Positions 1,524-48,086 of a DNA stretch of 64,000 bases are shown in pieces (position 1 is the stretch's first letter; each line of letters starts with the position of its first letter). The stretch is taken from NCBI GenBank assembly GCA_965205425.1, contig CBDBGZ010000009.1:672001-736000 (forward strand), read 5' to 3'. Below the pieces are notes generated by a model. The model did no database searches, was not told where the DNA came from, and saw only the letters and a list, made by a program, of their open reading frames with translations. The stretch comes from Nitrosopumilus sp. GTDB taxonomy: Archaea; Thermoproteota; Nitrososphaeria; Nitrososphaerales; Nitrosopumilaceae. The position numbers and the translations under genes were made by a program.

Positions 1524-2000
1524 TGATGCAAAAAATAGAATAGCTATTGATAAAACTACAGTAATCTCTCCAAGGATGATTATTTTTTTCCTTAATTTTT
1601 GTATTTCAAGTTCTGGCATTTGATTTGACATAATTCTTTCTTCAACATCTTTACGAATTACTCTAACATGAACAGCATATGTTACAATTAATGCAATTAC
1701 AAGAATGATTTTGATAATTAAAAATGTCCCATAACTAGTTGATACTAGAAGATCAGGTTTACTAAGTAAGACATGTGAAGTATACAAACCTGTAACCATT
1801 AAGATAATCAACGATGGAACAGCAACTTTGTTAAATCGTCTACCTACACGAATCATTATTTGCATTCTTTCTTCAATAGAATTTGTCATGGTTTTCAAAA
1901 GTGGAGAAAATACAATTCCAATGAATAATGAACCGCCAACCCATATTGCAGCTGCAACAAGATGAATCCAAGTGATAATTGCCTGTTCTAGAGCAGCCAT
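1503..2000 (-). CDS. CopD-family membrane protein
   Basis: HLVAAAIWVGG motif, four TM helices, YG..LIIKI. Confidence 0.75.
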   Translation of the reverse strand: MAALEQAIITWIHLVAAAIWVGGSLFIGIVFSPLLKTMTNSIEERMQIMIRVGRRFNKVAVPSLIILMVTGLYTSHVLLSKPDLLVSTSYGTFLIIKIILVIALIVTYAVHVRVIRKDVEERIMSNQMPELEIQKLRKKIIILGEITVVLSIAILFFASLLDAGV

Positions 2001-2057
2001 AGTTTATGATATTTTAAATCAAATATTATGTATTTGGATCTTGCCAACCTTTTTTAG

Positions 2058-2576
2058 TTGTACAAATCTGGAATCATTGAAATGGCACTTCAAAGTAAAT
2101 TGATAGTTTATCTAGCAATAGTTGGAGTTTTAGCATTAATGGGAGGAATTATTTTCTATGCTAGTCTGGATAATGATGAACTTGCTTTAATTGAGGTTGA
2201 ACTAACAAATGTGAAACTATTAGATGTAAACACAGTAGAAAATCAAGCAAAGTTTGAAGTTACATTTTTGGTAACAAATCCAAGTGACAAAACATTAACA
2301 GTTTCACAAATAGATTTTCAACTATATGGTAATGGTGACTTGTTAGGTCCTGGATTATATTCTACAACAGACATAGCATTACCAGGTAGAGCATTGTTTG
2401 TTTCAGGTGCAGAAATTCCATTGAAAAATATATTTGTTCTAAGTAAATCTGAAATAAATTCAGAAGTTTATGAGGATGCAATAAATGAAAGATTAACAAG
2501 TTTTTCTGCTGAAGGAAAAATTATCACTCAAACTTCCTGGAGTGAAACTGAGAAAGATTTCAAGACAGGTTATTAA
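2058..2576 (+). CDS. Membrane-anchored LEA_2-like hypothetical protein
   Basis: N-terminal TM helix followed by FLVTNPS beta-rich domain; true start may be ATG at 2082. Confidence 0.6.
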   Translation: MYKSGIIEMALQSKLIVYLAIVGVLALMGGIIFYASLDNDELALIEVELTNVKLLDVNTVENQAKFEVTFLVTNPSDKTLTVSQIDFQLYGNGDLLGPGLYSTTDIALPGRALFVSGAEIPLKNIFVLSKSEINSEVYEDAINERLTSFSAEGKIITQTSWSETEKDFKTGY

Positions 2577-2584
2577 TTAAAAAG

Positions 2585-2658
2585 TGGGCCTAATGAGATT
2601 CGAACTCATGATCACCGCCATGTCGAGGCGGTATCCTAACCAGCTAGACTACAGGCCC
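2585..2658 (-). tRNA. tRNA-Val(GAC)
   Basis: Cloverleaf GGGCCTG...TAGGCCC A; anticodon arm CCGCC-TCGACAT-GGCGG; T loop TTCGAAT. Confidence 0.93.
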
Positions 2659-2727
2659 ATTGAAAAATAAATCAAATAATTGACATTATTAACGTTTAAC
2701 AAAAGAAAGAATTGAGGTAGAAAAGAG

Positions 2728-3438
2728 ATGACAGAAGATTTTACTGATGAAGAAAAAAGAGGTTTCTACAAGGCAATCTATTCAAGAAGGGATGTAAGAT
2801 CTCACTTTATATCAAAACCAATAGAAGATGAGGTTTTATCAAAAATTCTTAACGCAGCACATCATGCACCATCTGTAGGATTTTCTCAACCATGGAATTT
2901 TATTTTAATTAAAGATCAAGATACTAAAAAGAAAATAAAAGAATCTTTTGAGGAAGAAAAAAATCGTTCATCACAATTAGTGGAGGAACCGAAGAAAACA
3001 AAATATCTTTCATTTAAACTAGAAGGTATTTTAGAATCACCAGTAAATCTTTGTGTAACATATGATCCTACAAAATTTGGACCATTTGTAATTGGTCGTT
3101 CAAGTATTCCTGAAGCAGGTCTTTACAGTGTTTGTTGTGCAATTCAAAATTTATGGCTATCAGCTAGAACAGAAGGGGTTGGATTAGGATGGGTAAGTAT
3201 TCTATCAAATGAAACTTTGAAAGAAACTTTAGATTTACCTGAACATGTAATCCCTGTTGCCTACTTGTGTTTAGGGTACGTTGATGAGTTTGCAGAAAAA
3301 CCAGATCTTGAAACTAAAGGGTGGTTACCAAGACTAGAATTGAAAGATGTGGTATATTTTGAAAAATGGAATGATAAAGAAAACAAAAACTGGGAAAAAA
3401 TTCAAACTATGATTAAAGATAATCTTGATTACGCTTAA
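2728..3438 (+). CDS. bluB: 5,6-dimethylbenzimidazole synthase
   Basis: RRDVRSHF, APSVGFSQPW, CAIQNLWL..R.EG.GLGWVS motifs. Confidence 0.92.
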   Translation: MTEDFTDEEKRGFYKAIYSRRDVRSHFISKPIEDEVLSKILNAAHHAPSVGFSQPWNFILIKDQDTKKKIKESFEEEKNRSSQLVEEPKKTKYLSFKLEGILESPVNLCVTYDPTKFGPFVIGRSSIPEAGLYSVCCAIQNLWLSARTEGVGLGWVSILSNETLKETLDLPEHVIPVAYLCLGYVDEFAEKPDLETKGWLPRLELKDVVYFEKWNDKENKNWEKIQTMIKDNLDYA

Positions 3439-3462: not shown

Positions 3463-3555
3463 GGGCTTGTAGCGCAGAGTCAATTTGACGCGCAACATGG
3501 ATAGCGCAGTAGCCTCCTAAGTTACAGGTCGAGGGATCGAAGCCCTCCAAGCCCG
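3463..3555 (+). tRNA. tRNA-Arg(CCT) with an 18-nt non-canonical intron at 15/16 (3478-3495)
   Basis: Anticodon arm GTAGC-CTCCTAA-GTTAC; removing 3478-3495 restores the D arm GCGC-AGCATGGATA-GCGC. Confidence 0.9.
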
Positions 3556-35556: not shown

Positions 35557-36417
35557 ATGATGGCTTCAATCATCAACCGCAAGAAGGGAAAAAGTACTTA
35601 CTATTATCTAATCCACAACACAGGAAAAATTCAACATGAAAAATATCTAGGCAAAATAAAACCAAAAAATGTTGAAAAAATCAAGAGAGAGTTCTTGTTA
35701 TCATTATGGTGTGAGGATTGGGAAATAAATCTAAGGAAGATCAAGAAAGGATATTCTGCACAGGCTAAAACATCAATTAAAGACCATCTAAAAGAATTTT
35801 CTTTGTTATTTACACATGATTCCCAAAAAATTGAAGGCTCAACACTGACAAAAAAAGAAACTTTCAACTTACTCCGATTTTCATTAACTCCAAGTAACAA
35901 ACCAGAACATGACATGATGGAGGCAAAAAAACATCACAAAGTGTATCTGCAAATGCTAGAATCAATGCCCAAACTAACTGAAAAGACAATATTGTCATGG
36001 CACAACGAAATGTTTGATAAAACAAAACCAGAGTTTGCAGGAAAATATAGAAAAGATGCCGTATTTGTAACAAACAGCGAATCAACATTTCCTCATTGGA
36101 AATTTATACCCCGATTTATCAAACATTTTCTAAAAGAATACAGGGAATTAAAAAATACCAAACCAGTTCAATTAGCTGGCATTATTCATTTTAGATTTGT
36201 AAGTATACATCCATTTGGAGATGGAAATGGCAGAGTTTCAAGAATGATCATGAATTACATATTAATAGATAATGACTTTCCGCCACTTAACATAAAATAT
36301 TCTGATAGAGAGGGATACTACAAATCATTAGAAAAAGGACAAGTAGAGGAAAACGAGATTCACTTTCTAAAATGGTTCATGAAATATTATATAAAATCAA
36401 ACAAAAAATACATGTAA
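35557..36417 (+). CDS. Fic family protein
   Basis: HPFGDGNGRVSR motif; SQKIEGS inhibitory-helix-like motif. Confidence 0.92.
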   Translation: MMASIINRKKGKSTYYYLIHNTGKIQHEKYLGKIKPKNVEKIKREFLLSLWCEDWEINLRKIKKGYSAQAKTSIKDHLKEFSLLFTHDSQKIEGSTLTKKETFNLLRFSLTPSNKPEHDMMEAKKHHKVYLQMLESMPKLTEKTILSWHNEMFDKTKPEFAGKYRKDAVFVTNSESTFPHWKFIPRFIKHFLKEYRELKNTKPVQLAGIIHFRFVSIHPFGDGNGRVSRMIMNYILIDNDFPPLNIKYSDREGYYKSLEKGQVEENEIHFLKWFMKYYIKSNKKYM

Positions 36418-36943: not shown

Positions 36944-37762
36944 TAGCGACGATCAAAAGTTCGCAAACATCTTTGCAGGATTTCTAAAGATATAATTTGC
37001 AACATCAAGCTTGAACTTTGTTACTCTAAAATATTTTGACACTATACCATTCATCATCGCAAACATTGCATAATATTCTGATACCAACAACTCATACTTG
37101 CTTATCTTCCAACACTGTTCTATCATGTTCAAGTACGGTGATCCTTTTGGCAACCATATTAGTTTGACATCTCTATTGTTTGCAAGATATTCTTTTACTT
37201 TTTTTGATTTATGAACTGATGCTCGGTCTAGCATGATTGCAATCTTGCCGTATTTCCAGTGCAACTCCTTTGGATACTCCACAAATGTTACAGCATTGAA
37301 TTTATCATAAACTCTAAACAGTTGACTGTTATTTTCCGTAATTGTTCCATATACTGCCAAGCTTTCATGATTCCCCGTATATGGAAGAAATATTCTCTTT
37401 GCAACTTTTGACCAATATTTTTTTCCTGTCTTTGCATCCCTTAGAAAAAATGCCTCATCAGCCATTGCAATGATAAATCCATTCTTTTTTAGGCGTGAAA
37501 TTCTCTTTCTGATGCGTTGCTGCCAGCTTCGCACAGCAGATACACTTGCATGGTTGATGTGATATTTTTGTGCAGTTTTTGCAGATATCATACTGATGCA
37601 TTATCTTTCTGATGTGAGTAATGTGAAATTTCACTCTAATGGAATAAGATATTGCTTGCTGTAGCATCACAGGAGTAAACAAAGTTAGCATTGCCTTTGA
37701 CATTATGCAATCCATTTTCTTCTTTGAAATTCTCCTTGGTCTTCCACACCTTGGGTGGTCGT
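36944..37762 (-). mobile_element. Truncated IS630-family element with a frameshifted transposase
   Basis: ORFs 36953-37591 (DEA, DRASVH, PKGSPYLNMIE) and 37458-37715; end TA|TAGCGACGATCAAAAGTTCG; cut by ISH3 at 37763. Confidence 0.82.
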
Positions 37763-39082
37763 CAGTAGATGGGAAAGTAACTCAATTTAGATCAAAAACT
37801 ATCAATTATTCAATCAATCTATTCAGATAGAAAAAGCTTGATGGAAGTATGTCACTCCATCAAATATGCATTGTACTTCATTTGATACCATGACACACCA
37901 AGGCGTGATACTATCTAAAGCATTTGAGATTATCACTAAAATAATGTACAATATCTTATTGTTTCCATGCTCTAGTAAAAATAACTCACGGTTCCACAAT
38001 GCAGATGCACATAATTCTATCATGTCATTGTGTTTGGGAAATTCATATTCTGAATCTGGATTAAAGAGACTGGCAATGGAATCAGATAATGCTTCTCCAA
38101 CTGGTTTCATGGTTGAGAAAAATCATATCAAAAATATCACAAAAAACAATGCAAATTCAATTACATCGTTCACTAGATAGTACCATATCAAAATTACAAG
38201 AATTGGGAGTATTGGAGCAACCAGTTACTGTGGCAATTGACAAACATCTAATCCCAAGATATGACAAATTGCCAAATCATTCTTTAATAAAATCAAAATC
38301 TAAAAACAGTACTACTCATTTTGAGAGTTACTGCACCATGCAGTGCGTTGAAAAAAGAATCAGGGCTCAATTAGGTTGTTATCCTTTGTATGACAACATA
38401 TCAAATGCCGGTTTTGTGCGTAAATTACTCTCTGATGGCATCAATAATGGAATCAAGATTAAACTATTGCTAGTGGATAGGGAGTTTTTCACAGCTGGAA
38501 CAATTTCAGAAATAAAACAAAAGAATTTAAAATTTCTAATGCCTGCAAAAAAGAATTCTCGAATCAAAGATGCCATTTTACAATACGTTAATGGAGATAG
38601 AAAATCAATCTCGCCATACACAATAAAATCATCATCAGGACATGTAGAATCATTTAATCTAGTTATTCTACCAAACAAAAATGCAAGAAAAAAATCAAAT
38701 ATTATTGATCAGTATGTTGTGTTTGCAACAAACGTTTCACCAAAAGAAATATCATATAACATACAAAACATTCCAACTGATTACAAGAAACGTTGGGGGA
38801 TTGAAACAGGCTATGCATGTGTGGGAAGGTTCAGACCAAAAACCACCAGTTCAAACCAATCCATAAGATTGTTGTATTTTTACTATTCATTGATTTTGTA
38901 CAATGCATGGATAATTGCTAATTTGATTATCTCAGAAGAAACCAATGTAAAAAATTACAAACCAATAATATCAATTGAAATTCTCAAATATTTCTTTGTA
39001 AAGATAATTATTCATTACTTTAGAAATAACAAAAATAATTATTTCCTAGAATGTGTAATTTGATGTACTTTCCCATCTACTG
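37763..39082 (+). mobile_element. ISH3-family insertion sequence, 1320 bp
   Basis: Perfect 17-bp TIR CAGTAGATGGGAAAGTA; no target duplication. Confidence 0.85.
37866..39063 (+). pseudogene. ISH3 transposase with a 1-nt frameshift near 38105
   Basis: AIDKHLIPRY, VDREFF, YKKRWGIETGY; removing one T joins SPTG/SWLRK. Confidence 0.8.
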
Positions 39083-39183
39083 GATATTGTCACAAAATTT
39101 AGTTACGTACAAAAACTCAATGGTGTAATGATTTTTTGAAATTATGCCTAAGTGTTAACCCCTCTAAAATTTTCAGAAAATAG

Positions 39184-39233
39184 AAAAAAAGGCTAGTTCA
39201 GTGGAGAACTAACTCGATCGTCAACCACATTGT
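39184..39233 (-). ncRNA. Antisense trailer of the adjacent tRNA, ending in a hairpin and T7
   Basis: Complementary to the tRNA 3' end, anticodon arm and D arm; hairpin GTTAGTTC-TCCACT-GAACTAGC, then TTTTTTT. Confidence 0.6.
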
Positions 39234-39260
39234 ATTGATAGTTTTTCTAATTAAACATTG

Positions 39261-39332
39261 TGGAGACGTCGGGATTTGAACCCGAGACCTTTCAATTGAC
39301 GATCGAAAGTTATACCACTAAACTACGTCCCC
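39261..39332 (-). tRNA. Atypical tRNA: Ala-type acceptor (G3:U70, A73) with anticodon GTC (Asp)
   Basis: GGGGACG TA GTTT AGTGGTA TAAC T TTCGA TCGTCAA TTGAA AGGTC TCGGG TTCAAAT CCCGA CGTCTCC A. Confidence 0.85.
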
Positions 39333-39708: not shown

Positions 39709-39968
39709 ATTTTGTATATCATAATTTAAAATAAAAACCCAAAAAACAAGTGATTTTTCTTAAGATTTGTATCGTAAACCCATGGTTTCAGAGTAAAATT
39801 AGCATGTTAAAGATTGATTTATGCGTAAAAAGAAATTCAAAAATTACTTTGCTGTAGAGATTTTTGTTATTCCTATAATGAGCACTATCTATACCTTGGA
39901 GGCATAATTCTTTGCAATTTTTCAAAACAAATAGCAATATTTTTTCATCAGTAGTTAGAAATGATTTC

Positions 39969-40112
39969 ATGAACATCACAAATGACGAGTTACTCCAGGC
40001 CTACAAAAAAGAAAAGTACGGTAAGAAAAAGGAAAGACTGCATGCAATGTGTATAATTAAGATCAACAAATCTACAATTGCTGAAACTGCCAACCAAATG
40101 TTTTGTACATAA
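39969..40112 (+). pseudogene. IS630-type transposase N-terminal remnant
   Basis: ELLQAYKKEK..KKKERLHAM, similar to orfA at 4360. Confidence 0.6.
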
Positions 40113-40232
40113 CCATATGTGCCAAAATCAGCTAGGAAATTAGATGGTACTTGCATTCGTATCAAGAAAGTAAGAAATGCAAACAAACACACTACCCTTC
40201 CTGAAAAAAAATATTTGATGTTTGTAGGATTG

Positions 40233-40535
40233 GATGTTCCCAAGAGAATTCTCAAGTAGTATGATGGCAACATTACAAGTGATTCGTATCCTGCATGGAA
40301 CCATGTTGGAACAACTCACCAGAAATGTCACATCCATTATCTCAGAGAGGTTAATGATACCATTAATCACAAGAATCCCGGACCAGAATTTGCACCATTT
40401 GCCAAGAATCTCAAGAAAATAATTTATGACTCTCATGGTGTGGCAAAAATAAAATCAGAATCAGAAAGAATCCATGCAAAAAAGAATCTTTACACTGTTC
40501 AATCTCCGGAGCTTTTCAACAGGGTGTTAAATTAG
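40233..40535 (+). pseudogene. IS66-type transposase remnant
   Basis: Manual translation YDGNITSDSYPAWNHVGTTHQKCHIHYLRE. Confidence 0.65.
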
Positions 40536-40761
40536 AGACTTTTTGTGTTAAGTTAGGTGCTTAATTCAAATCAAGTGATTTAGAATTAGCAGAGATGTGT
40601 TTAGAAACAAATTGTGCCGGTATGATGTGATAAGTGAGATTGTTTGCGGGATTGTCAATTTCAAGATAAAATGGAAAGAAGAATTTGTTGTAATTCCATA
40701 AAATTAGAAATTAAATGATAGAAAAGTTAGATTTTTGCTTGTAATTGCGCAACTCAATCCA

Positions 40762-41820
40762 TTATTTGAAAAAGAAATTCCTTACTCTTTGAAATCTCGA
40801 GTCATTTATGCCGCCTAGTGTTGGGGTTGGTTTTTCAACTAGGATTCCCTGTGGCCTATACAACAAAATTGCAAGTAAAATTATTCCCAGCAACAAAAAG
40901 TCAAGCCAGACTATATCAAATGGAACAAATCCTTCAAAAGAGTCCTTAAAAAATATGATAAGCTTTCGCAGGGTAACAAAAATCAAGGTTCCAACTAGCA
41001 CACCCTTGTTATTTGCAAGTCCCCCAATGAGAATCATTAGAAACGGCCAAAATGTCCAGCTTGCTCTATCATAAGCAAATGCAATGGTCCCGCCGACATA
41101 AAATGCATACAATGCCCCGCCGATTGCTGCAAGTGCAGCTGAAATCATAATTATTTTGATTCTGGCATTTGTCGTATTTTTCCCCAAGGATTCCGCTGCT
41201 GTTTCATTGTCCCTGATTGCTTTGAGCATTCGCCCCAATGGTGAACGGAGCATCTTCTCACTATATGCATAAACTGCCATTGCAATGCACACCAGACCAA
41301 CTGTAGCTACTGAAAATCGAATCTCATCAGGCAGAAATGATAATGGATCTGGTACTTGAACTCCAAGTGTTCCACCAACTAGTGGGGCATAGTTATTTCC
41401 AATAATTCTTATGCTTTCACCAAATGCCAGTAATGTAATTGCAAGATAGTCTCCACGTAGTCTAATTGCTGGATATGATGTGAGTATTCCAATACCTCCA
41501 CCTATTACTGCTGCTATTGCCAGTGTCAGAAAGAAGATGGCAAAGCCTATCCCCACATTATCCACAAGCCACAAGTTAATTTCAGAGACAATTTGCAGAT
41601 TATCCAAAATATAGTCCCCCTTAATTTGTGCCATCTCTGCAAATATTCTACCAGGAATTGATGCTGCAACAAATGCACCGGCACCAACTGCCAAAACCTT
41701 GCCAAAGTTTGGAATTCCAGCATATCCAAACTCCATATTCAAGCTAAGATTGACAATTGCATAGACTGCAAATATTGCAAGCAAATCTACAAGGAATATT
41801 ATTTCAGTGTTTAGAGCCAT
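40762..41820 (-). CDS. livM: Branched-chain amino acid ABC permease
   Basis: LRGDYLAITLLAFGE, GRMLKAIRDNE.AA.SLG. Confidence 0.9.
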   Translation of the reverse strand: MALNTEIIFLVDLLAIFAVYAIVNLSLNMEFGYAGIPNFGKVLAVGAGAFVAASIPGRIFAEMAQIKGDYILDNLQIVSEINLWLVDNVGIGFAIFFLTLAIAAVIGGGIGILTSYPAIRLRGDYLAITLLAFGESIRIIGNNYAPLVGGTLGVQVPDPLSFLPDEIRFSVATVGLVCIAMAVYAYSEKMLRSPLGRMLKAIRDNETAAESLGKNTTNARIKIIMISAALAAIGGALYAFYVGGTIAFAYDRASWTFWPFLMILIGGLANNKGVLVGTLIFVTLRKLIIFFKDSFEGFVPFDIVWLDFLLLGIILLAILLYRPQGILVEKPTPTLGGINDSRFQRVRNFFFK

Positions 41821-42730
41821 CTCTCCTCAACTTTGACCAGTTTATTCCTGCCAAGCCTTTTGGCGCCAAAAATAATGTCACTACAATGAAAATTAGTGGG
41901 ATTAGCGGACGATATGCAATAAGCCATGCTCCAAATTCTCCAGCCAAAAACCTCGTTCCCAAAATTTCTGTCAGCCCCACCAGAATTCCCCCCGTAATTG
42001 CACCATAAATGCTAAGAAAGCCACCCGTAATACTTGCTGCAAATACACTTGGAATTAGCTGTGGCCCAAGATTCGGGTCTCCCTGAAACCACATTGACAT
42101 TAGTGCTCCTGCAATTCCTGCAAAGCCCCCTCCAAGCAGCCAAGAAACTCCATAGATTAGTTTCACATTAATCCCAACTGTCTCTGCCAGATCAGAATTT
42201 TCAGTAGATGCCCTCATTGCAATGCCAAACTTTGTTTTACGCAGTATAATGTGCAGCGATACTGCAAGGACTGCAACTGCAATTGGCGCTACAAACACAA
42301 TTAATGGCAGTTCCATAAACTCTGCATCATAACTGCGCAGTGAGAATTCCCTTGATGTAATCTGGTATGTTTGGACTATATAGTCTGCAATGATGTTTAG
42401 TAGCGCAATTACTACTAGGTCAAAGGCCAAAGTTGCAATCATTTGAATTGCCTGAGATGCGCCCTTTCGAATCAGGGGTTTTATGATAAACGTGTACAGT
42501 AACACTGCAAGAACTCCAGAAATTACAAATGAGATAGGAACTGCAACATAGGGGGTCATCCCCCAGACATGGGTCACAATCAATGCAACATATACCCCAA
42601 TGGTTGCAAATGATGCATGGGCAAAGTTAGGTACTCTGGTTGTGATGTATGTCAGTGTCAATCCAATACAAAGCAGAGCCAAAAGACTGGCAAAAATTAT
42701 CGCATCAGAAAAAATTGGATCGTATGCCAA
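41804..42730 (-). CDS. livH: Branched-chain amino acid ABC permease
   Basis: GLTL...VPNFAH, TKFGIAMRA..EN..LA..VGIN. Confidence 0.9.
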   Translation of the reverse strand: MAYDPIFSDAIIFASLLALLCIGLTLTYITTRVPNFAHASFATIGVYVALIVTHVWGMTPYVAVPISFVISGVLAVLLYTFIIKPLIRKGASQAIQMIATLAFDLVVIALLNIIADYIVQTYQITSREFSLRSYDAEFMELPLIVFVAPIAVAVLAVSLHIILRKTKFGIAMRASTENSDLAETVGINVKLIYGVSWLLGGGFAGIAGALMSMWFQGDPNLGPQLIPSVFAASITGGFLSIYGAITGGILVGLTEILGTRFLAGEFGAWLIAYRPLIPLIFIVVTLFLAPKGLAGINWSKLRRDGSKH

Positions 42731-42786
42731 GCCATCAACCTACATACAAAACCCTTAATTTCTTTATGCTTTTAAAATGAATCATA

Positions 42787-43542
42787 ATGGTGATTCTGGA
42801 TATTTCAAATATCACAAAGAGTTTTGGGGGCCATACTGCACTTGATGGAGTTGACATAAAATTAAAAGAGGGAAAACTATACGAGATGATTGGCCCAAAT
42901 GGTAGTGGGAAAACCACTCTGATTAATGTAATCTCAGGGATGCTAAAACCTGATGATGGTAAAATTGTCTTTGGGGGCAATGATATTACAAAAAAGGGAC
43001 TCTGCGATACATTTGAGACAGGTCTGGTTAGAACCTGGCAGATTCCCCAGCCTTTTGCAATGCTGACAACTTTGGAGAATTTTGTACTATCAGGCGTAAA
43101 TAACTCCGGAGAGTCATATCTTTTGGCCCCATTAAAATCCAGATGGAAAAATGATGAGCAAAAAATTACAGATGATGCACAAAAAATCATGGAGATGCTA
43201 AATCTGACTAGTCAAAAAGATACGCTTGGCCAGAATCTTAGCGGGGGCCAGCAAAAACTCTTGGAGCTAGGCCGCGCCATGATGTCAGGGGCCAAGATGA
43301 TACTGATGGATGAACCAATTGCAGGTGTGAATCCCACACTGGCCCATGGCATATTTGAGAGAATCTCATCCATATGCAAAAGACAAAAAATTACATTTTT
43401 GATTGTAGAGCATAGGCTCGATATAGCATTGCAGTATGCAGACCATGTTTTTGCAATGAATCAGGGAAAAATTATTACTCAAGGCAGTTCTGAGCAGATA
43501 GTAAAACATCCCAAAGTTCTCAAATCATATCTGGGGGAATAA
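42787..43542 (+). CDS. livG: ABC ATP-binding protein
   Basis: GPNGSGKT, RTWQ, LSGGQQK, DEPIAGVNP, YLGE. Confidence 0.9.
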   Translation: MVILDISNITKSFGGHTALDGVDIKLKEGKLYEMIGPNGSGKTTLINVISGMLKPDDGKIVFGGNDITKKGLCDTFETGLVRTWQIPQPFAMLTTLENFVLSGVNNSGESYLLAPLKSRWKNDEQKITDDAQKIMEMLNLTSQKDTLGQNLSGGQQKLLELGRAMMSGAKMILMDEPIAGVNPTLAHGIFERISSICKRQKITFLIVEHRLDIALQYADHVFAMNQGKIITQGSSEQIVKHPKVLKSYLGE

Positions 43543-44274
43543 ATGTCTCACAAACAATCTGATTTAGTAATTGATGTTAGTGATTTGAATTCAGGATATG
43601 TAAACAGTCATATTCTTTTTGGGGTTGATTTTGAGGCAAAGACAAAAGAGATTACAGTAATTATCGGTCCAAACGGTTCAGGAAAAAGTACGTTGCTCAA
43701 AAGCATTTTTGGTTTGTGTGATGTGTATTCTGGTCAAATCAGATACAACAATGAAGAGATTACAAAGATGGCACCGCATCAAATAGCAAGGAAGAAAATT
43801 GCATACCTGCCTCAGACCAATAACGTCTTTGCAAATCTTAGCATAAAAGAAAATCTTTTCATGGCAAGCTATACACTGGATTCAAAGGTACAGCCAGAGA
43901 GATTCTCTGAAATTTTTGAAACATTTCCTATTTTAAAAAAATATGAAAAATCAAAGGCAAGTACTCTTAGCGGAGGTCAACGCCAAATGCTTGCAATGGC
44001 CATGGCACTAGTCTGTCTGCCAAAAGTTATGCTATTTGATGAGCCCACTGCCAGTCTTTCTCCAAAACTGGCAGATGAGGTATTATCAAAAATAAAACAG
44101 ATCAGAGATGACTTTGGAATTACAGTAATCATGGTTGAACAAAATGTCAAAAGGGCGCTAAAGATGAGTGACTATGTCTATCTTTTGGCAAACGGCAAGG
44201 GTGTGTTCAAAGGAAGTTCAGAGGAGATACTGTCTCATCGGCAACTAGGCAAGCTGTATCTGGGGATCAGTTAA
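43543..44274 (+). CDS. livF: ABC ATP-binding protein
   Basis: GPNGSGKS, LSGGQRQMLA, DEPTASLSP, VEQN. Confidence 0.9.
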   Translation: MSHKQSDLVIDVSDLNSGYVNSHILFGVDFEAKTKEITVIIGPNGSGKSTLLKSIFGLCDVYSGQIRYNNEEITKMAPHQIARKKIAYLPQTNNVFANLSIKENLFMASYTLDSKVQPERFSEIFETFPILKKYEKSKASTLSGGQRQMLAMAMALVCLPKVMLFDEPTASLSPKLADEVLSKIKQIRDDFGITVIMVEQNVKRALKMSDYVYLLANGKGVFKGSSEEILSHRQLGKLYLGIS

Positions 44275-45532
44275 AAATAATCGAATCATCAAGGGTTGTG
44301 TATTTTCCAAGTTCAGTCCAATCTCCATCCCTTATTCCCCATACTTTGTAATCTGCTTGGGCCAGATCCCCTGCATCATTTAGTTTTGTGGATCCGATTG
44401 CCCCCATGTAATTCTCAGCAATTCCAGGTATTGCAGCCTTTATTGCACTGACATCAGTACTCTGAGTTTCAAGCATTGCCAGACCAATTAGCCATACTGC
44501 ATCATATGAGGAATGCACAAAGGTGTTGGGATCAGTGCCCAGAGTCTCACTTAGATGAGTTTGTACCTTTTTGTATGTAGGGTTATCAGCAGGTGCAAAC
44601 TGGACTGTTGTAAATGATACATCAGTTGAGAATTCCAGTCCTATTGGATCAGATACCAGATTGCGTTCCTTTGTAATGGCACCAGGTCCAAACCATCTTA
44701 CCTCGCCTAGTATCTCATGTCCTGATGCTGACTGCATAAACTGCAAGACCTCTGCAAATCCCAAAAACAAGACCCCTACCTTCTCAGATCCATACTCATC
44801 TGTATATTTTTGCACTTTTTGAGCCAAGAGTGAAGTTGATGCAGAAAATTCCGGAGATTCGGGATTATACCTAATATTATCATCTACTATGCCCCCTCTT
44901 TGCATGAATGAATCAGATGCTGATTCTCCAAGTCCGTCACCCCACGTATCTCCCCTCCATACTGGAATCATTACTTTGATTCCCTGGTCATGCATTAGCT
45001 TGGCAATTGCAGGTCCCTGATTAGAGTCATCAGGAATCAGACGAAATACGCTGTCATTTGGGATGGCAAGTGCAGGAGCTGACGAGCAGCAGCTGACTAG
45101 CAACATGTTATTAGAATCAGAATACCCCTTCATGTTTCTGATGTTGGAGCTGGTTTCAGGTCCCACTATAACTCCGATTCCTTTGGCATGCAGTGCAGTT
45201 AGTTTCTCCAATGCAACTACGGGGTTGGTTGCAGAGTCTTCTGAAACCATTTTGAGATGCCATGGCGCATCAATGCCTTGCAGATACTTGTTAAACTCTG
45301 ATACTCCAAACTTTGAGCCCTCATGGTTTTCTGCCCCATGAGTTGCCAAGTCTCCAGTCAATGGAAGAATCAATCCAATGGTTACCTCTCCGGACAATCC
45401 TGTTGCATTAACTGGCACTTGTACAGGATTTTCTGCATCCATACTTTCCGAACCTGCAGATAACACCACATAAGCAACACTGATAATAATTGAAATAGCT
45501 ACGACTGTAATTCCTATTTTTTTATAATCCAC
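44267..45532 (-). CDS. livK: Branched-chain amino acid ABC substrate-binding protein
   Basis: N-terminal anchor, IGLILPLTG, VFRLIPDD, YDAV, G.TKLN..GD. Confidence 0.85.
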   Translation of the reverse strand: MDYKKIGITVVAISIIISVAYVVLSAGSESMDAENPVQVPVNATGLSGEVTIGLILPLTGDLATHGAENHEGSKFGVSEFNKYLQGIDAPWHLKMVSEDSATNPVVALEKLTALHAKGIGVIVGPETSSNIRNMKGYSDSNNMLLVSCCSSAPALAIPNDSVFRLIPDDSNQGPAIAKLMHDQGIKVMIPVWRGDTWGDGLGESASDSFMQRGGIVDDNIRYNPESPEFSASTSLLAQKVQKYTDEYGSEKVGVLFLGFAEVLQFMQSASGHEILGEVRWFGPGAITKERNLVSDPIGLEFSTDVSFTTVQFAPADNPTYKKVQTHLSETLGTDPNTFVHSSYDAVWLIGLAMLETQSTDVSAIKAAIPGIAENYMGAIGSTKLNDAGDLAQADYKVWGIRDGDWTELGKYTTLDDSIIFN

Positions 45533-45604
45533 GTAAATTTTGTAAAACTTGTGATAATTAAACCTTTGAATTATGAGAGAACGGGATTTGAGACCAAAAC
45601 AAGA

Positions 45605-47884
45605 TCATTGAGACTTGTCATGGACGTAATACTGTGCATCTGAGGACAAAATCTCCAAGGCTTGCATCTCTGAGAGTTTTATGTATTGTTTTGTCTCATT
45701 GTCAATCCTCTCACCAATGACATAATCAATTGTGAGTGGATCCTCTGGTGTGCTCTGTATTGCACTACTGTCAAAAACGCCAGTAGCCCGGGCGACTTCG
45801 TGCTCCATTATATCATTCCATGCCGAATGCATTCTAGTCATGGATGTGGTGGACTTGTCCTGATGTCTTTCAAATTCATCAGGCGTTATTTTGCTCCAGG
45901 TCATAGAATCATTGTGCTCCCACAAGTTGCCAAATTGATCTGCATATGTGGAATACCGCCTGTCTATTTGTGTCAATTCCAATGTAATGCTAGCATCCTG
46001 GCTTGACCTCTTTGAGAATAGCTCATGTGTGACAGGCTCTAATAGGGATTCACCTGTAAACTCGACACCGTCGTTGATGTATGTGACAGTGCTGCGTCTG
46101 TCAAAGTCAGTTGCCGAGATTGCAAGGACATTTGACTTTAATGGTGCAGATATGCTAAAGTCTATTCCAATGATATAGCACAACTCATTAAGCGAATCAC
46201 TGGCACACTTTACCTTGGATATGCTAGAGTCTGTATCCTCCTCATTTACCAGAGATTCTTTTTGCTCATGGACTATTCCTGTAATGGTATAGTCATCTGG
46301 AATTGTATAGTCTCTGTCTAATTGTATGATAATGTCAGTCTCTGCCTCTGATGCCTTGCCGATTTCAGGCACTCCCAAAGACAGGGTCACATCGCGTAGT
46401 ATCTTATCTGTGTACACCTTGATATCGACATGGTTGGTATCACCAATTATTGATTCAGTGAGTACAAATTCGGTGTGGAAGTTGTCTGTTATATCCAGGG
46501 TATAGTCATTAAATGTGAATCCATTCTCCACTAGCTGTGCAGATGATACCTCCCATGACTTTCCAAAGGTAGGTTTCTTTTTCCAGTCATTGCTAGAGCC
46601 TCCACTAGCAGGCTCCTCAGGGTCCATCGGTGGCTCTGGAGGAATAGTAATTGTAAGATCACCTTCCAAGTTGGTAGTACTTAACGTAGACCCTACGGCA
46701 CCAGCATGAAGTCTTAATACAGGTGGATCATATGGTTCATTATTACTATTATCATCTCCCGTGAAAGAAACATTTATTCTATTCCACAGAGTTCTGTCTA
46801 CGAGGGTTATGGTAATTGTATTACCATCAACAACAAAAGTAGATGCAAATGGCGGGGTCTCATTTGTTCCTATTAGACGCAACTCGAACGGGATTGTGGT
46901 TCCTAGAAAATCAATTATCTGGAAGTTGGAGAGATTTACACTGTCAGGGACAATATCATCATTAAAAGTAACTATCAGTTCCCCGCTAAGATCTTCACCA
47001 TCATCATCAACAATATGATTGTATAATACACTAGTAGCAGATAACTGCAAACCATCTACGCCTATACTTGCTTGATTAGAGCGTGCAGATGTAACACCTG
47101 AATTGGTGGCAGTTGCAGTAAATGTGTGAGTAACAAAATTAGGTGATGTCCCTATTGGCACAGATATCTCCCAAAAGCCATTACTGTCTACGGGGGTATC
47201 ACCAACAGACGTGCCACGGTCAAACAGCTCAATGGAATGGCCTGTTAGTCCATTACCAATAACAGTCAGAATACGATCTATTCGGTCTAAATCAATATCA
47301 GAATCTATGATAGGTGGAGGTACAACACCTGGCTGTAAAATAGTCAATGGAATACCAGCAAACCCAATAATTTCAAGGCATTCTCCTCCCCGCTCAGCAG
47401 TAGCACATACGGCGTGGGGGATGTTGGGGGTTATATTGGTGGGACCATTACTTCTTAAAACGGGTATACTGATATGTGGATCGCTGATAGCCGTATCTAT
47501 TCTATCAGATATAGCAGATGTGGGGGATACGGTAATCGTATTACCACTAATATCATGAGACGATGACTGTAGATTTAGCGCGCGTTGGATGTCCCCATTA
47601 ACAAACCCACTAGGGAAAAAGAATAAGGATGGTTCGAAACTGTCAGGGTCAATTCCCTCATTAAAAACTATTGTCAAGTCCTTTGAGCCAGTATCATAAA
47701 ATACGTTGAGAATAGCCAAATCAATATCTGGCCTCTCCCCATATACATCATGACTGGGAATGGCAAGTGTAAGTACAGAAAAGAGTAAAACTGATGATAG
47801 TAACAGAATTTGAGGCTTCACTTTTAATCCAAAACTATTCAAGCATATAAATGATTTTGTAAAAAGACAGACATGACCAACCAT
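45605..47884 (-). CDS. Large secreted/surface protein with Ig-like domains
   Basis: Signal-like segment, VDSNGFWEI...HTFTATAT Ig repeat, Pro/Gly linker, KPTFG C-terminal domain; start uncertain. Confidence 0.75.
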   Translation of the reverse strand: MVGHVCLFTKSFICLNSFGLKVKPQILLLSSVLLFSVLTLAIPSHDVYGERPDIDLAILNVFYDTGSKDLTIVFNEGIDPDSFEPSLFFFPSGFVNGDIQRALNLQSSSHDISGNTITVSPTSAISDRIDTAISDPHISIPVLRSNGPTNITPNIPHAVCATAERGGECLEIIGFAGIPLTILQPGVVPPPIIDSDIDLDRIDRILTVIGNGLTGHSIELFDRGTSVGDTPVDSNGFWEISVPIGTSPNFVTHTFTATATNSGVTSARSNQASIGVDGLQLSATSVLYNHIVDDDGEDLSGELIVTFNDDIVPDSVNLSNFQIIDFLGTTIPFELRLIGTNETPPFASTFVVDGNTITITLVDRTLWNRINVSFTGDDNSNNEPYDPPVLRLHAGAVGSTLSTTNLEGDLTITIPPEPPMDPEEPASGGSSNDWKKKPTFGKSWEVSSAQLVENGFTFNDYTLDITDNFHTEFVLTESIIGDTNHVDIKVYTDKILRDVTLSLGVPEIGKASEAETDIIIQLDRDYTIPDDYTITGIVHEQKESLVNEEDTDSSISKVKCASDSLNELCYIIGIDFSISAPLKSNVLAISATDFDRRSTVTYINDGVEFTGESLLEPVTHELFSKRSSQDASITLELTQIDRRYSTYADQFGNLWEHNDSMTWSKITPDEFERHQDKSTTSMTRMHSAWNDIMEHEVARATGVFDSSAIQSTPEDPLTIDYVIGERIDNETKQYIKLSEMQALEILSSDAQYYVHDKSQ

Positions 47885-48086
47885 AACTAATCAACCCTCA
47901 AACTGTTAAAAAGAGCGTCGCAGTAGTCTATTGGACAAATCCGTTTTCCTTTCCATCTTTTGTGTCGAAAACAGAACCCTACTTTTCGTCACACTATTTG
48001 CCAGTTTGATCGGATCAATCTCAGGCACAACTTAGGCATGAACAATTTAGAAATATTTCTTGTTATTTGTTCCAACTAAGGGGGTA

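What the first reader, a model, noticed from the sequence alone, without database searches (positions are those of the whole stretch)
39184..39332. Self-locking tRNA: 3' trailer antisense to the tRNA's processing site, anticodon arm and D arm
Seen on the minus-strand transcript: (a) trailer ACAAUGUGG (39233-39225) pairs 8/9 with C71-C72-A73 plus the first trailer bases (39263-39255); (b) the next 11 nt, UUGACGAUCGA (39224-39214), pair perfectly with the anticodon stem and loop (39306-39296), including the unusual GUC; (c) CCACUGAACUA (39204-39194) pairs with the D arm UAGUUUAGUGG (39325-39315). Two of the differences give G:U pairs on this strand but mismatches on the other, which supports pairing in cis. 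The same trailer can instead fold as hairpin GUUAGUUC/GAACUAGC before U7. Inference: a two-state pre-tRNA in which the trailer blocks cloverleaf folding and RNase Z cleavage. This would be an RNA-only toxin/antitoxin or switch holding a mistranslating tRNA inactive until triggered, for example by stress or virus infection. I know of no described system like it. The trailer's match to GUC argues against the anticodon being a sequencing error.
Basis: partly seen in the sequence, partly recalled or inferred. Interest (0 to 1): 0.9.

Follow-up and report, generated by a model that had tools for sequence, protein, structure and literature searches.

The report
Miscoding tRNA paired with anti-tRNA gene
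Behind this odd tRNA gene of an ammonia-oxidising archaeon lies a tiny gene-like module whose RNA is the exact antisense of the tRNA's own front half, and dozens of related tRNA genes carry their own matching module, which points to a previously undescribed way of keeping a potentially miscoding tRNA in check.

Summary
The 149-nt stretch folds as a long hairpin (-52.3 kcal/mol, 0 of 200 shuffles as good) in which the "trailer" pairs with the D and anticodon arms. Only point (a), pairing at the processing site, looks like chance. The gene is one of a superfamily in this archaeal family (Nitrosopumilus and three other genera). These are tRNA-Ala-derived genes (G3:U70, A73) with non-alanine anticodons (GAA, AAG, GUC and others). 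In 36 of 40 of them, a flanking module of about 45 nt pairs over 13-17 nt with that gene's own anticodon arm. The module then has a hairpin antisense to the D arm, followed by a T-run. It lies either downstream on the same strand (11, as here) or upstream on the opposite strand (26). No module was found at 16 canonical tRNA-Ala genes. G:U outnumbers A:C 59 to 9, so the pairing is kept at RNA level. A TATA-like box sits 22-28 nt before each block. My reading is a dedicated antisense small RNA, "anti-tRNA", that acts in trans, and also in cis by read-through here. It would hold an alanine-accepting, miscoding tRNA inactive on mobile or defence-island DNA. Function and expression are untested. 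The scan earlier noted tRNA-tail antisense blocks in other phyla, read there as hairpin cassettes or RtT-like repeats, not this family.

The parts
39261..39332 (-). tRNA-Ala-derived gene with anticodon GTC (Asp). It runs 72 nt to discriminator A73. G3:U70 is at 39330:39264. The anticodon is at 39300-39298, and position 33 is C instead of U.
   Evidence: ARAGORN; Rfam RF00005 at 65 bits; sequence read; family comparison.
39291..39307 (-). Anticodon arm (17 nt), the target of the antisense block.
39247..39255 (-). TATA-like box, invariant among the four paralogues. Its centre lies 24 nt before the antisense block. I infer that it is the promoter of the module.
   Evidence: Invariant columns. In the family, 42 of 47 TATA-like hits upstream of 35 modules lie 22-28 nt before the block. 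This matches the geometry at the 49 canonical tRNA genes.
39213..39227 (-). Antisense block: a 15-nt run that pairs with tRNA positions about 27-41 (5' strand of the anticodon stem, the loop, and the start of the 3' strand).
   Evidence: covariation.
39192..39213 (-). Module hairpin (8-bp stem, 6-nt loop). It derives from an inverted copy of the D arm.
   Evidence: alignment.
39191..39204 (-). 3' arm of the hairpin plus GCC. It is antisense to the D-arm 5' side (39325-39315) and to acceptor positions 2-4, and competes with the hairpin's own 5' arm.
39184..39190 (-). Run of seven T: end of the module RNA and of any read-through tRNA transcript.
   Evidence: A run of five or more T follows the block in 32 of 37 modules, 32-47 nt from the block start.
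39083..39183 (-). 100-nt stretch after the T-run, shared with paralogue C (about 84% identity over 225 nt including the module). Role unknown.
37763..39082 (+). 1,320-bp insertion sequence (DDE_Tnp_1 transposase ORF 38089-39063) that cuts the shared stretch. It is not part of the module.
   Evidence: loose ends at 39082/39083.

Best explanation
The window holds a two-gene RNA unit. Gene 1 is a well-formed tRNA derived from tRNA-Ala. It keeps the alanine identity marks G3:U70 and A73 but reads an Asp anticodon. Gene 2 begins 33 nt downstream on the same strand. It is a module of about 45 nt with its own TATA-like box and T-run.

The module RNA has three parts: a single-stranded 5' block antisense to the tRNA's anticodon stem-loop, a hairpin whose 3' arm is antisense to the D arm and acceptor positions 2-4, and a U-tail.

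Proposed mechanism. The free 5' block docks on the anticodon loop. Pairing then spreads into the stem and, after the hairpin opens, into the D arm. This unfolds the 5' half of the tRNA and keeps it out of maturation and decoding.

Shown: the complementarity, the covariation, the strand asymmetry, the two arrangements, and the promoter-like and terminator-like signals.

Inferred: that the module is transcribed; that the tRNA is charged with alanine and would misread Asp codons as Ala; and that the pair works like a toxin/antidote or a regulated-mistranslation module carried by mobile or defence-island DNA. I put about 0.75 on functional RNA-RNA pairing and about 0.3-0.35 on the toxin/antidote reading.
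For: Fold:
- The locked structure is -52.3 kcal/mol, z = -6.28.
- The same architecture is the minimum-energy fold in all four paralogues.
- As two separate RNAs, the duplex gains 14.2 kcal/mol and engages 33 of 72 tRNA nt.

Covariation:
- On the model-fitted alignment of 11 members, 88.4% of cells pair, against 33-47% when partners are slid.
- 21 of 35 pairs show changes on both sides. For the anticodon-arm/block helix it is 12 of 13.

Family rule:
- 36 of 40 Ala-like genes with a non-Ala anticodon have a run of 13 nt or more between arm and module in the module's transcribed orientation.
- 0 of 40 reach that in the control orientation (maximum 11).
- 0 of 16 canonical tRNA-Ala genes and none of the 45 true other tRNAs reach 13.

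Strand asymmetry:
- Over the full 17-nt arm of 41 unique pairs: Watson-Crick 575, G:U 59, A:C 9. Tandem members give 24:0 and divergent members 35:9.
- The 7 distinct members on the model alignment give 25:5.

Two arrangements with one constant. The module is downstream on the same strand in 11 and upstream on the opposite strand in 26. The two forms are collinear in alignment. A DNA hairpin cannot explain the second form.

Specificity. Cognate runs are 10-17 nt; non-cognate runs within one genome are mostly 4-9 nt.

Transcription signals. TATA-like boxes lie 22-28 nt before the block (42 of 47 hits), as before canonical tRNA genes. A T-run follows 32-47 nt after the block start in 32 of 37.

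The cloverleaf is also kept. Rfam scores are 52-65 bits for intact members, with compensated acceptor and anticodon stems.

Context. Insertion sequences, DNA methylases, restriction-like and BREX-like genes, and conjugation ATPases surround the loci.

Papers, abstracts read. tRNA-Ala anticodon variants misincorporate alanine and often slow growth in yeast (PMC10543346). Natural dual-identity tRNAs exist in Streptomyces (PMC10404621).
Against: - No expression data. No RNA run holds the locus.
- The two-dimensional barrier from cloverleaf to locked fold is 16-26 kcal/mol. A tRNA that has already folded and been modified may therefore resist invasion.
- This copy and paralogue C have C33 instead of the near-universal U33, so they may decode poorly.
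- Unmatched modules exist. L066 and L067 each carry an extra downstream module that does not fit their own tRNA, and L064 has an upstream module of another type. Modules therefore recombine or move on their own.
- Three of 40 genes have only degenerate modules.
- G3:U70 may be inherited rather than selected, and the module's 3' end also constrains positions 2-4.
- Counts include related copies, so they are not independent events.
Confidence: 0.5

Rival explanations
1. Strictly cis 'self-locking' precursor. The module is only a 3' trailer. It blocks cloverleaf folding and 3' processing of its own transcript until a trigger removes it.
For: - The 149-nt fold is the locked hairpin.
- The minimum-energy fold flips as soon as the block is transcribed, at 114 nt or more.
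- Only three T lie between the tRNA and the module here, so read-through is likely.
Against: - 26 of 37 members have the module upstream on the opposite strand, where it cannot be in cis.
- A promoter-like box sits 22-28 nt before the block in tandem members too.
- Pairing at the processing site is not conserved.
- Some tandem members have five T directly after the tRNA.
Confidence: 0.15
2. The module RNA has a positive or different role. It could be a folding or processing guide for the tRNA, a tag that directs its decay, or a partner in a duplex that is itself the product, for example a decoy for a nuclease or sensor.
For: The same pairing, covariation and transcription signals support this as support the main model. 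Nothing yet shows in which direction the effect goes.
Against: The duplex destroys the D and anticodon arms, which is hard to reconcile with help in maturation. I saw no C/D boxes by eye in the module sequences, and Rfam matched only tRNA in these loci. I also saw no bulge-helix-bulge motif by eye in the folds.
Confidence: 0.15
3. DNA-level origin only. The half-tRNA copies are scars of site-specific recombination or of a small mobile hairpin cassette at tRNA genes, kept alike by gene conversion. The RNA pairing would be incidental.
For: - The module is an inverted or direct copy of the tRNA's 5' half, ending near position 41, which is a usual crossover region.
- The module is present in L067 and absent at the same site in this genome's copy H.
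- Unmatched modules exist.
- Loci sit in mobile DNA.
- Earlier notes of this scan read similar tails in other phyla as cassettes.
Against: - G:U outnumbers A:C 59 to 9, which DNA-level homogenisation does not predict.
- Copies lie 32-66 nt from the gene and do not bound an element.
- No tyrosine-integrase family appeared among the roughly 190 neighbouring ORFs scanned.
- A T-run and a TATA-like box always lie on the module's own sense strand.
Confidence: 0.1
4. An ordinary tRNA gene with a terminator hairpin. The complementarity is chance.
For: A hairpin plus T-run is found. The genome is AT-rich.
Against: 0 of 200 shuffles fold as well. 36 of 40 relatives have their own matching block, against 0 of 16 canonical tRNA-Ala genes.
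Confidence: 0.01

Closest known systems
Type I toxin-antitoxin systems such as hok/sok (recalled, no call)
   Same: A short antisense RNA with a free 5' seed and a terminal hairpin pairs with a specific target RNA encoded next to it. There are many orthogonal paralogues per genome. The loci sit in mobile and defence-island DNA, and 'orphan' antisense copies occur.
   Different: The target here is a tRNA, not an mRNA for a small toxic protein, and there is no ORF. Toxicity and differential stability are untested. The tandem same-strand layout also allows a cis lock.
Natural dual-identity tRNAs: tRNA-ProX of Streptomyces and Kitasatospora (PMC10404621, abstract read)
   Same: Genomically encoded tRNAs whose body specifies one amino acid and whose anticodon reads another. 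They form a family with several anticodons, and expression is harmful or conditionally useful.
   Different: Those are bacterial, proline-type, and paired with a special ProRS isoform. No antisense partner is reported in the abstract. The genes here are archaeal, alanine-type, and paired with an RNA.
tRNA-Ala anticodon variants in yeast and humans (PMC10543346, abstract read; PMC12084884, search listing only)
   Same: Because AlaRS reads G3:U70 and not the anticodon, anticodon-swapped tRNA-Ala misincorporates alanine. In yeast, 36 of 60 variants slowed growth.
   Different: Those are engineered or sporadic variants. Here a conserved gene family has a dedicated partner.
RtT repeats and other tRNA-tail elements
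   Same: Structured sequence directly behind tRNA genes that echoes part of the tRNA.
   Different: Rfam found nothing but tRNA here. The module copies the 5' half in antisense, has its own promoter-like box, and in most members lies upstream on the other strand.
3' external transcribed spacer of a tRNA operon acting as a small-RNA sponge in E. coli, and ColE1 RNA I/RNA II (both recalled, no call)
   Same: A tRNA-linked spacer RNA, or a cloverleaf-like antisense RNA, that acts by base pairing.
   Different: Those pair with other small RNAs or with a replication primer, not with the tRNA itself.

Membership tests
tRNA (Rfam RF00005) | Cloverleaf that fits the covariance model above the gathering score | tested here: met
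   65 bits against a threshold of 29. Intact relatives score 52-65 bits.
tRNA-Ala identity | G3:U70 pair and discriminator A73 | tested here: met
   39330:39264 is G:T and 39261 is A. G:U is present in all four paralogues. Canonical tRNA-Ala genes of the family share the same leader and acceptor ends.
tRNA-Ala identity | Alanine anticodon (NGC) | tested here: not met
   The anticodon is GTC. Across the family: GAA 19, AAG 8, GTC 6, CAG 3, GAG 2, ATC 1, GAT 1 of 40.
tRNA-Ala identity | Charged with alanine by AlaRS | not testable with these tools
   Needs an aminoacylation assay.
Type I toxin-antitoxin | The toxin is a small protein translated from the target mRNA | tested here: not met
   The target is the tRNA itself. 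No ORF lies in 39184-39332.
Type I toxin-antitoxin | An adjacent antisense RNA pairs specifically with the target RNA | tested here: met
   By sequence only: (covariation, G:U excess, cognate versus non-cognate runs).
Type I toxin-antitoxin | Toxicity of the target, rescue by the antisense, and an unstable antidote | not testable with these tools
   Needs expression and stability experiments.
RtT / tRNA-linked repeats (RF00391) | Match to the Rfam model | tested here: not met
   Only tRNA was matched in the window and in 11 related loci.
att-site remnant of an element integrated in a tRNA gene | A direct repeat of part of the tRNA bounding an element that encodes an integrase | tested here: not met
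   The copy is inverted here and lies 33 nt from the gene. No tyrosine-integrase family was found in the neighbours scanned.
Archaeal tRNA intron / bulge-helix-bulge substrate | Two 3-nt bulges separated by a 4-bp helix at the anticodon-pairing region | tested here: inconclusive
   By eye, the folds show 2-nt or 3x2 and 2x4 internal loops around a 4-bp helix. No dedicated model was run.
Hairpin plus T-run terminator | GC-containing stem followed by five or more T | tested here: met
   From recall, archaeal termination needs only the T-run.

The most novel reading that the evidence does not exclude
An RNA-only toxin/antidote pair. A stable, alanine-charged tRNA reads Asp, Phe or Leu codons and acts as the toxin. 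A short-lived 45-nt 'anti-tRNA' that unfolds it acts as the antidote. Archaeal mobile elements and defence islands would use such pairs for addiction or abortive infection, with orphan anti-tRNAs giving immunity against rival elements.
Probability: 0.3. Interest if true: 0.95.

Novelty: categorically new. Interest (0 to 1): 0.85.

Why it matters
If the reading holds, it adds a new class of target for antisense RNA: a tRNA. It would also be the first natural control device for a deliberately miscoding tRNA. That makes regulated mistranslation in archaea directly testable. The matched, orthogonal tRNA/anti-tRNA pairs would also be ready-made parts for switchable recoding. Even if the toxin idea is wrong, a conserved gene pair with 13-17-nt covarying complementarity in at least 16 genomes of four genera needs an explanation.

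Tried and rejected
- RNA evidence: no RNA holder was listed for the locus. Laying four DNA contig runs gave only cross-mapping of paralogues and the insertion-sequence boundary at 39082/39083. It said nothing about inversion or expression.
- BLAST of the 162 nt in 151 genomes of the family found only T-arm matches outside this genome. A covariance model and a pattern search were needed.
- An exact pattern for the module hairpin found 0 viral contigs, 2 metagenome contigs of which one is unrelated, and 2 places in one Nitrosopumilus MAG.
- Model R1 in 151 genomes of the class found no tandem member outside the family. Hits in other families were canonical tRNA-Ala genes. R1 cannot see the divergent layout, so absence elsewhere is not shown.
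- A conserved protein partner was sought in about 190 neighbouring ORFs. None was found. The small ORFs upstream of paralogues C and D have no Pfam match.
- Bulge-helix-bulge, C/D-box guide, Y-RNA-like, invertible-switch and attachment-site readings were considered and set aside, as explained under the rivals.
- Paper searches and passages of PMC6563490 and PMC8450103 gave no description of such pairs. Supplements were not read, and subscription journals are not covered.
I took the coordinates from the ruler instead.

Full report
THE OBSERVATION

On the minus strand, 39332-39261 is a tRNA gene (ARAGORN Asp/GTC; Rfam tRNA 65 bits).
- an 11-nt perfect inverted match to the anticodon stem-loop (pair I5), which becomes a 15-nt run with G:U allowed;
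- an 11-of-11 match to the D-arm side, 39204-39194 with 39325-39315, seen in the fold;
- a competing 8-bp hairpin, 39213-39192, followed by C and seven T.

The 149 nt fold into one long hairpin at -52.3 kcal/mol (z = -6.28; 0 of 200 shuffles as good). The cloverleaf alone is -24.1 and the trailer alone -11.9. The pairing at the 3' processing site, point (a), exists here. However, none of 11 tandem relatives exceeds shuffles, so I treat it as chance.

PARALOGUES IN THE SAME GENOME

The window is part of a 2.2-Mb, 33% GC archaeal assembly with intron-bearing tRNAs. It belongs to the same genus as a record titled Nitrosopumilus sp..

A DNA search found three more copies. A covariance model built from the four found a fifth, decayed copy.

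The copies differ in the anticodon arm and even in the anticodon (three GTC, one GAA). Yet each downstream block is antisense to its own arm, and each precursor folds to the same locked architecture. Among 59 tRNA predictions of the genome, only these four reach 13-16-nt runs. The others have 11 or fewer.

COVARIATION AND STRAND

Model R1 found clear members in another genus: G065 with anticodon GAG, and G145 with ATC. It also found a metagenome contig.

On the alignment of 11 members:
- 88.4% of cells pair, against 33-47% when partners are slid;
- 21 of 35 pairs changed on both sides;
- the anticodon-arm/block helix shows this in 12 of 13 pairs.

That alignment is fitted to the structure, so I repeated the count without a model. 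Over the whole 17-nt arm of 41 unique pairs there are 575 Watson-Crick pairs, 59 G:U, 9 A:C and 54 other. The 7 distinct members on the model alignment give 25 G:U against 5 A:C. DNA-level copying predicts equal numbers of G:U and A:C. The excess says that RNA of the tRNA-sense strand pairs with RNA of the module's sense strand.

The cloverleaf is kept as well. Intact members score 52-65 bits, and the acceptor and anticodon stems show compensated changes. Two exclusive structures are therefore both maintained.

WHAT THE tRNA IS

All members begin GGGC (GGGG in this copy) and end GUCCA. They have G3:U70 and A73, the alanine identity marks. They also share the leader and 3' flank of the canonical tRNA-Ala genes of this family.

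Their anticodons are not alanine. Of 40, as called by ARAGORN: GAA 19, AAG 8, GTC 6, CAG 3, GAG 2, ATC 1, GAT 1. The genome also has normal tRNA-Asp, tRNA-Phe and tRNA-Ala genes.

Because AlaRS ignores the anticodon, such tRNAs should carry alanine to foreign codons. In yeast, 52 of 57 tRNA-Ala anticodon variants mistranslated and 36 of 60 slowed growth (PMC10543346, abstract). This copy and paralogue C have C33 in place of U33, and the block tracks that change. They may therefore be weak decoders.

THE 'TRAILER' IS A MODULE FOUND IN TWO LAYOUTS

Other Ala-like genes with foreign anticodons had no downstream block. Instead they had an upstream direct copy of their own anticodon arm. Read on the opposite strand, that upstream piece has the same layout as the trailer here and aligns collinearly with it: antisense block, hairpin, the same closing motif, then a T-run.

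I fetched 32 further loci from 16 genomes. The results were:
- 36 of 40 Ala-like, non-Ala genes have a run of 13 nt or more in the module's own orientation, 1 has 11-12, and 3 have 10 or fewer with visibly degenerate modules.
- 0 of 40 reach 13 in the control orientation.
- 0 of 16 canonical tRNA-Ala genes reach 11.
- Of 48 other tRNAs, the only two with 13 or more, and one with 11, were family members that my filter had missed.
- The layouts are 11 downstream on the same strand and 26 upstream on the opposite strand.
- One pair of rows (L105, L109) is identical. Relatives are not independent.

Members with a verified module come from 16 genomes of four genera (g1, g14, g16, g18).

SIGNS OF INDEPENDENT TRANSCRIPTION

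- A run of five or more T follows the block in 32 of 37 modules, 32-47 nt from the block start and mostly 37-42 nt.
- TATA-like octamers upstream of 35 modules fall 22-28 nt before the block in 42 of 47 hits. At the 49 canonical tRNA genes of this genome, the same octamer peaks 24-30 nt before the mature 5' end.
- In the window the box is 39255-39247. It is invariant among the four paralogues and keeps a fixed 23-24-nt spacing to the block, while its distance to the tRNA varies.

The module thus looks like a gene of about 45 nt whose RNA starts at the antisense block. As two separate RNAs, the tRNA and module of the window gain 14.2 kcal/mol by pairing and engage 33 of 72 tRNA nt. Here only three T separate the tRNA from the module, so read-through would also give the cis-locked precursor. 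Other tandem members have five T at that place.

CONTEXT

The loci lie among insertion sequences of many families, TnpB, DNA methylases, Mrr-like, GmrSD-like and BREX-like genes, ParB, Fic, and conjugation ATPases. No single protein partner recurs. One genome has 8 pairs and another 5. Within a genome, cognate runs (10-17 nt) exceed non-cognate ones (mostly 4-9 nt).

Modules can be exchanged or lost:
- L066 and L067 carry an extra downstream module that fits another type.
- L064 has an upstream module of another type.
- Copy H of this genome lacks the downstream module that L067 has at the same site.

INTERPRETATION

The best-supported reading is a dedicated antisense small RNA that sequesters or unfolds its own tRNA. 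It acts in trans in most members, and in trans plus cis in tandem ones such as this. The inference that the pair controls a harmful alanine-miscoding tRNA, in the manner of a toxin/antidote module of mobile DNA, fits several features: the identity marks, the island context, the orthogonal paralogues and the orphan modules. It rests on no experiment.

Points against:
- There are no expression data.
- The computed barrier from cloverleaf to locked fold is 16-26 kcal/mol.
- This copy has C33.
- Unmatched modules exist.

COMPARISON AND NOVELTY

Rfam has no family for the module. Six full-text searches and passages of two papers gave no description. Supplements and subscription journals were not seen.

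Earlier notes of this scan describe antisense blocks in tRNA tails of Patescibacteria and vent archaea, read as cassettes or RtT-like repeats. They also describe a serine-type tRNA with a Phe anticodon in this same genome. One such serine-type gene lies about 430 nt from paralogue C and has no module.

The unit works like a type I toxin-antitoxin pair but fails that family's defining feature of a protein toxin. It resembles the Streptomyces dual-identity tRNAs but has an RNA partner. I therefore class it as a new kind, with the function still to be shown.

They enter only the tallies.

Noticed in passing
window 3463-3555 (+): A third tRNA, found by Rfam at 50 bits but missed by ARAGORN. It is 93 nt long, so it probably carries an intron.
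   Followed up: no
L003 1972-2061 (= G000 C9:254931-255020), about 430 nt from paralogue C: A 90-nt tRNA with a long extra arm and anticodon GAA. It sits beside an Ala-type miscoding tRNA and has no antisense module.
   Followed up: partly
L066 about 3090-3230 (minus strand; G219): A family tRNA gene is interrupted after position 43 by a 36-nt insert followed by a repeat of positions 8-43. This could be an insertion with a long duplication or an intron-like piece.
   Followed up: no
window 37763-39082 and 36953-37591: A 1,320-bp insertion sequence with copies at 97-99% identity in at least two other regions of the genome. Next to it is an IS630-like DDE_3 transposase ORF. Insertion-sequence fragments also fill 39887-40245.
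   Followed up: partly
window 40000-48000: A block of 38-42% GC in a roughly 30% GC window. It holds a branched-chain amino-acid ABC transporter (permeases, ATPase, binding protein) and may have been acquired from elsewhere.
   Followed up: no
L003 1229-1390 (-) and L004 1739-1948 (+): Small ORFs (53 and 69 aa) sharing an MPKWK start lie divergently upstream of paralogues C and D. They have no Pfam match.
   Followed up: partly
window 39083-39183: A 100-nt stretch after the T-run is conserved with paralogue C and cut by the insertion sequence. Its role is unknown.
   Followed up: no
L058 (G145 C1:7319-7491) with ORF 1668-3170: A 5'-truncated copy of the G065-type pair abuts a TnpB-like (OrfB_IS605 / Cas12f-like) gene.
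   Followed up: no
window 35557-36417 (+): A Fic/DOC-family gene lies 3 kb from the pair. A Fic fragment also lies near a pair in G423 (L141).
   Followed up: no
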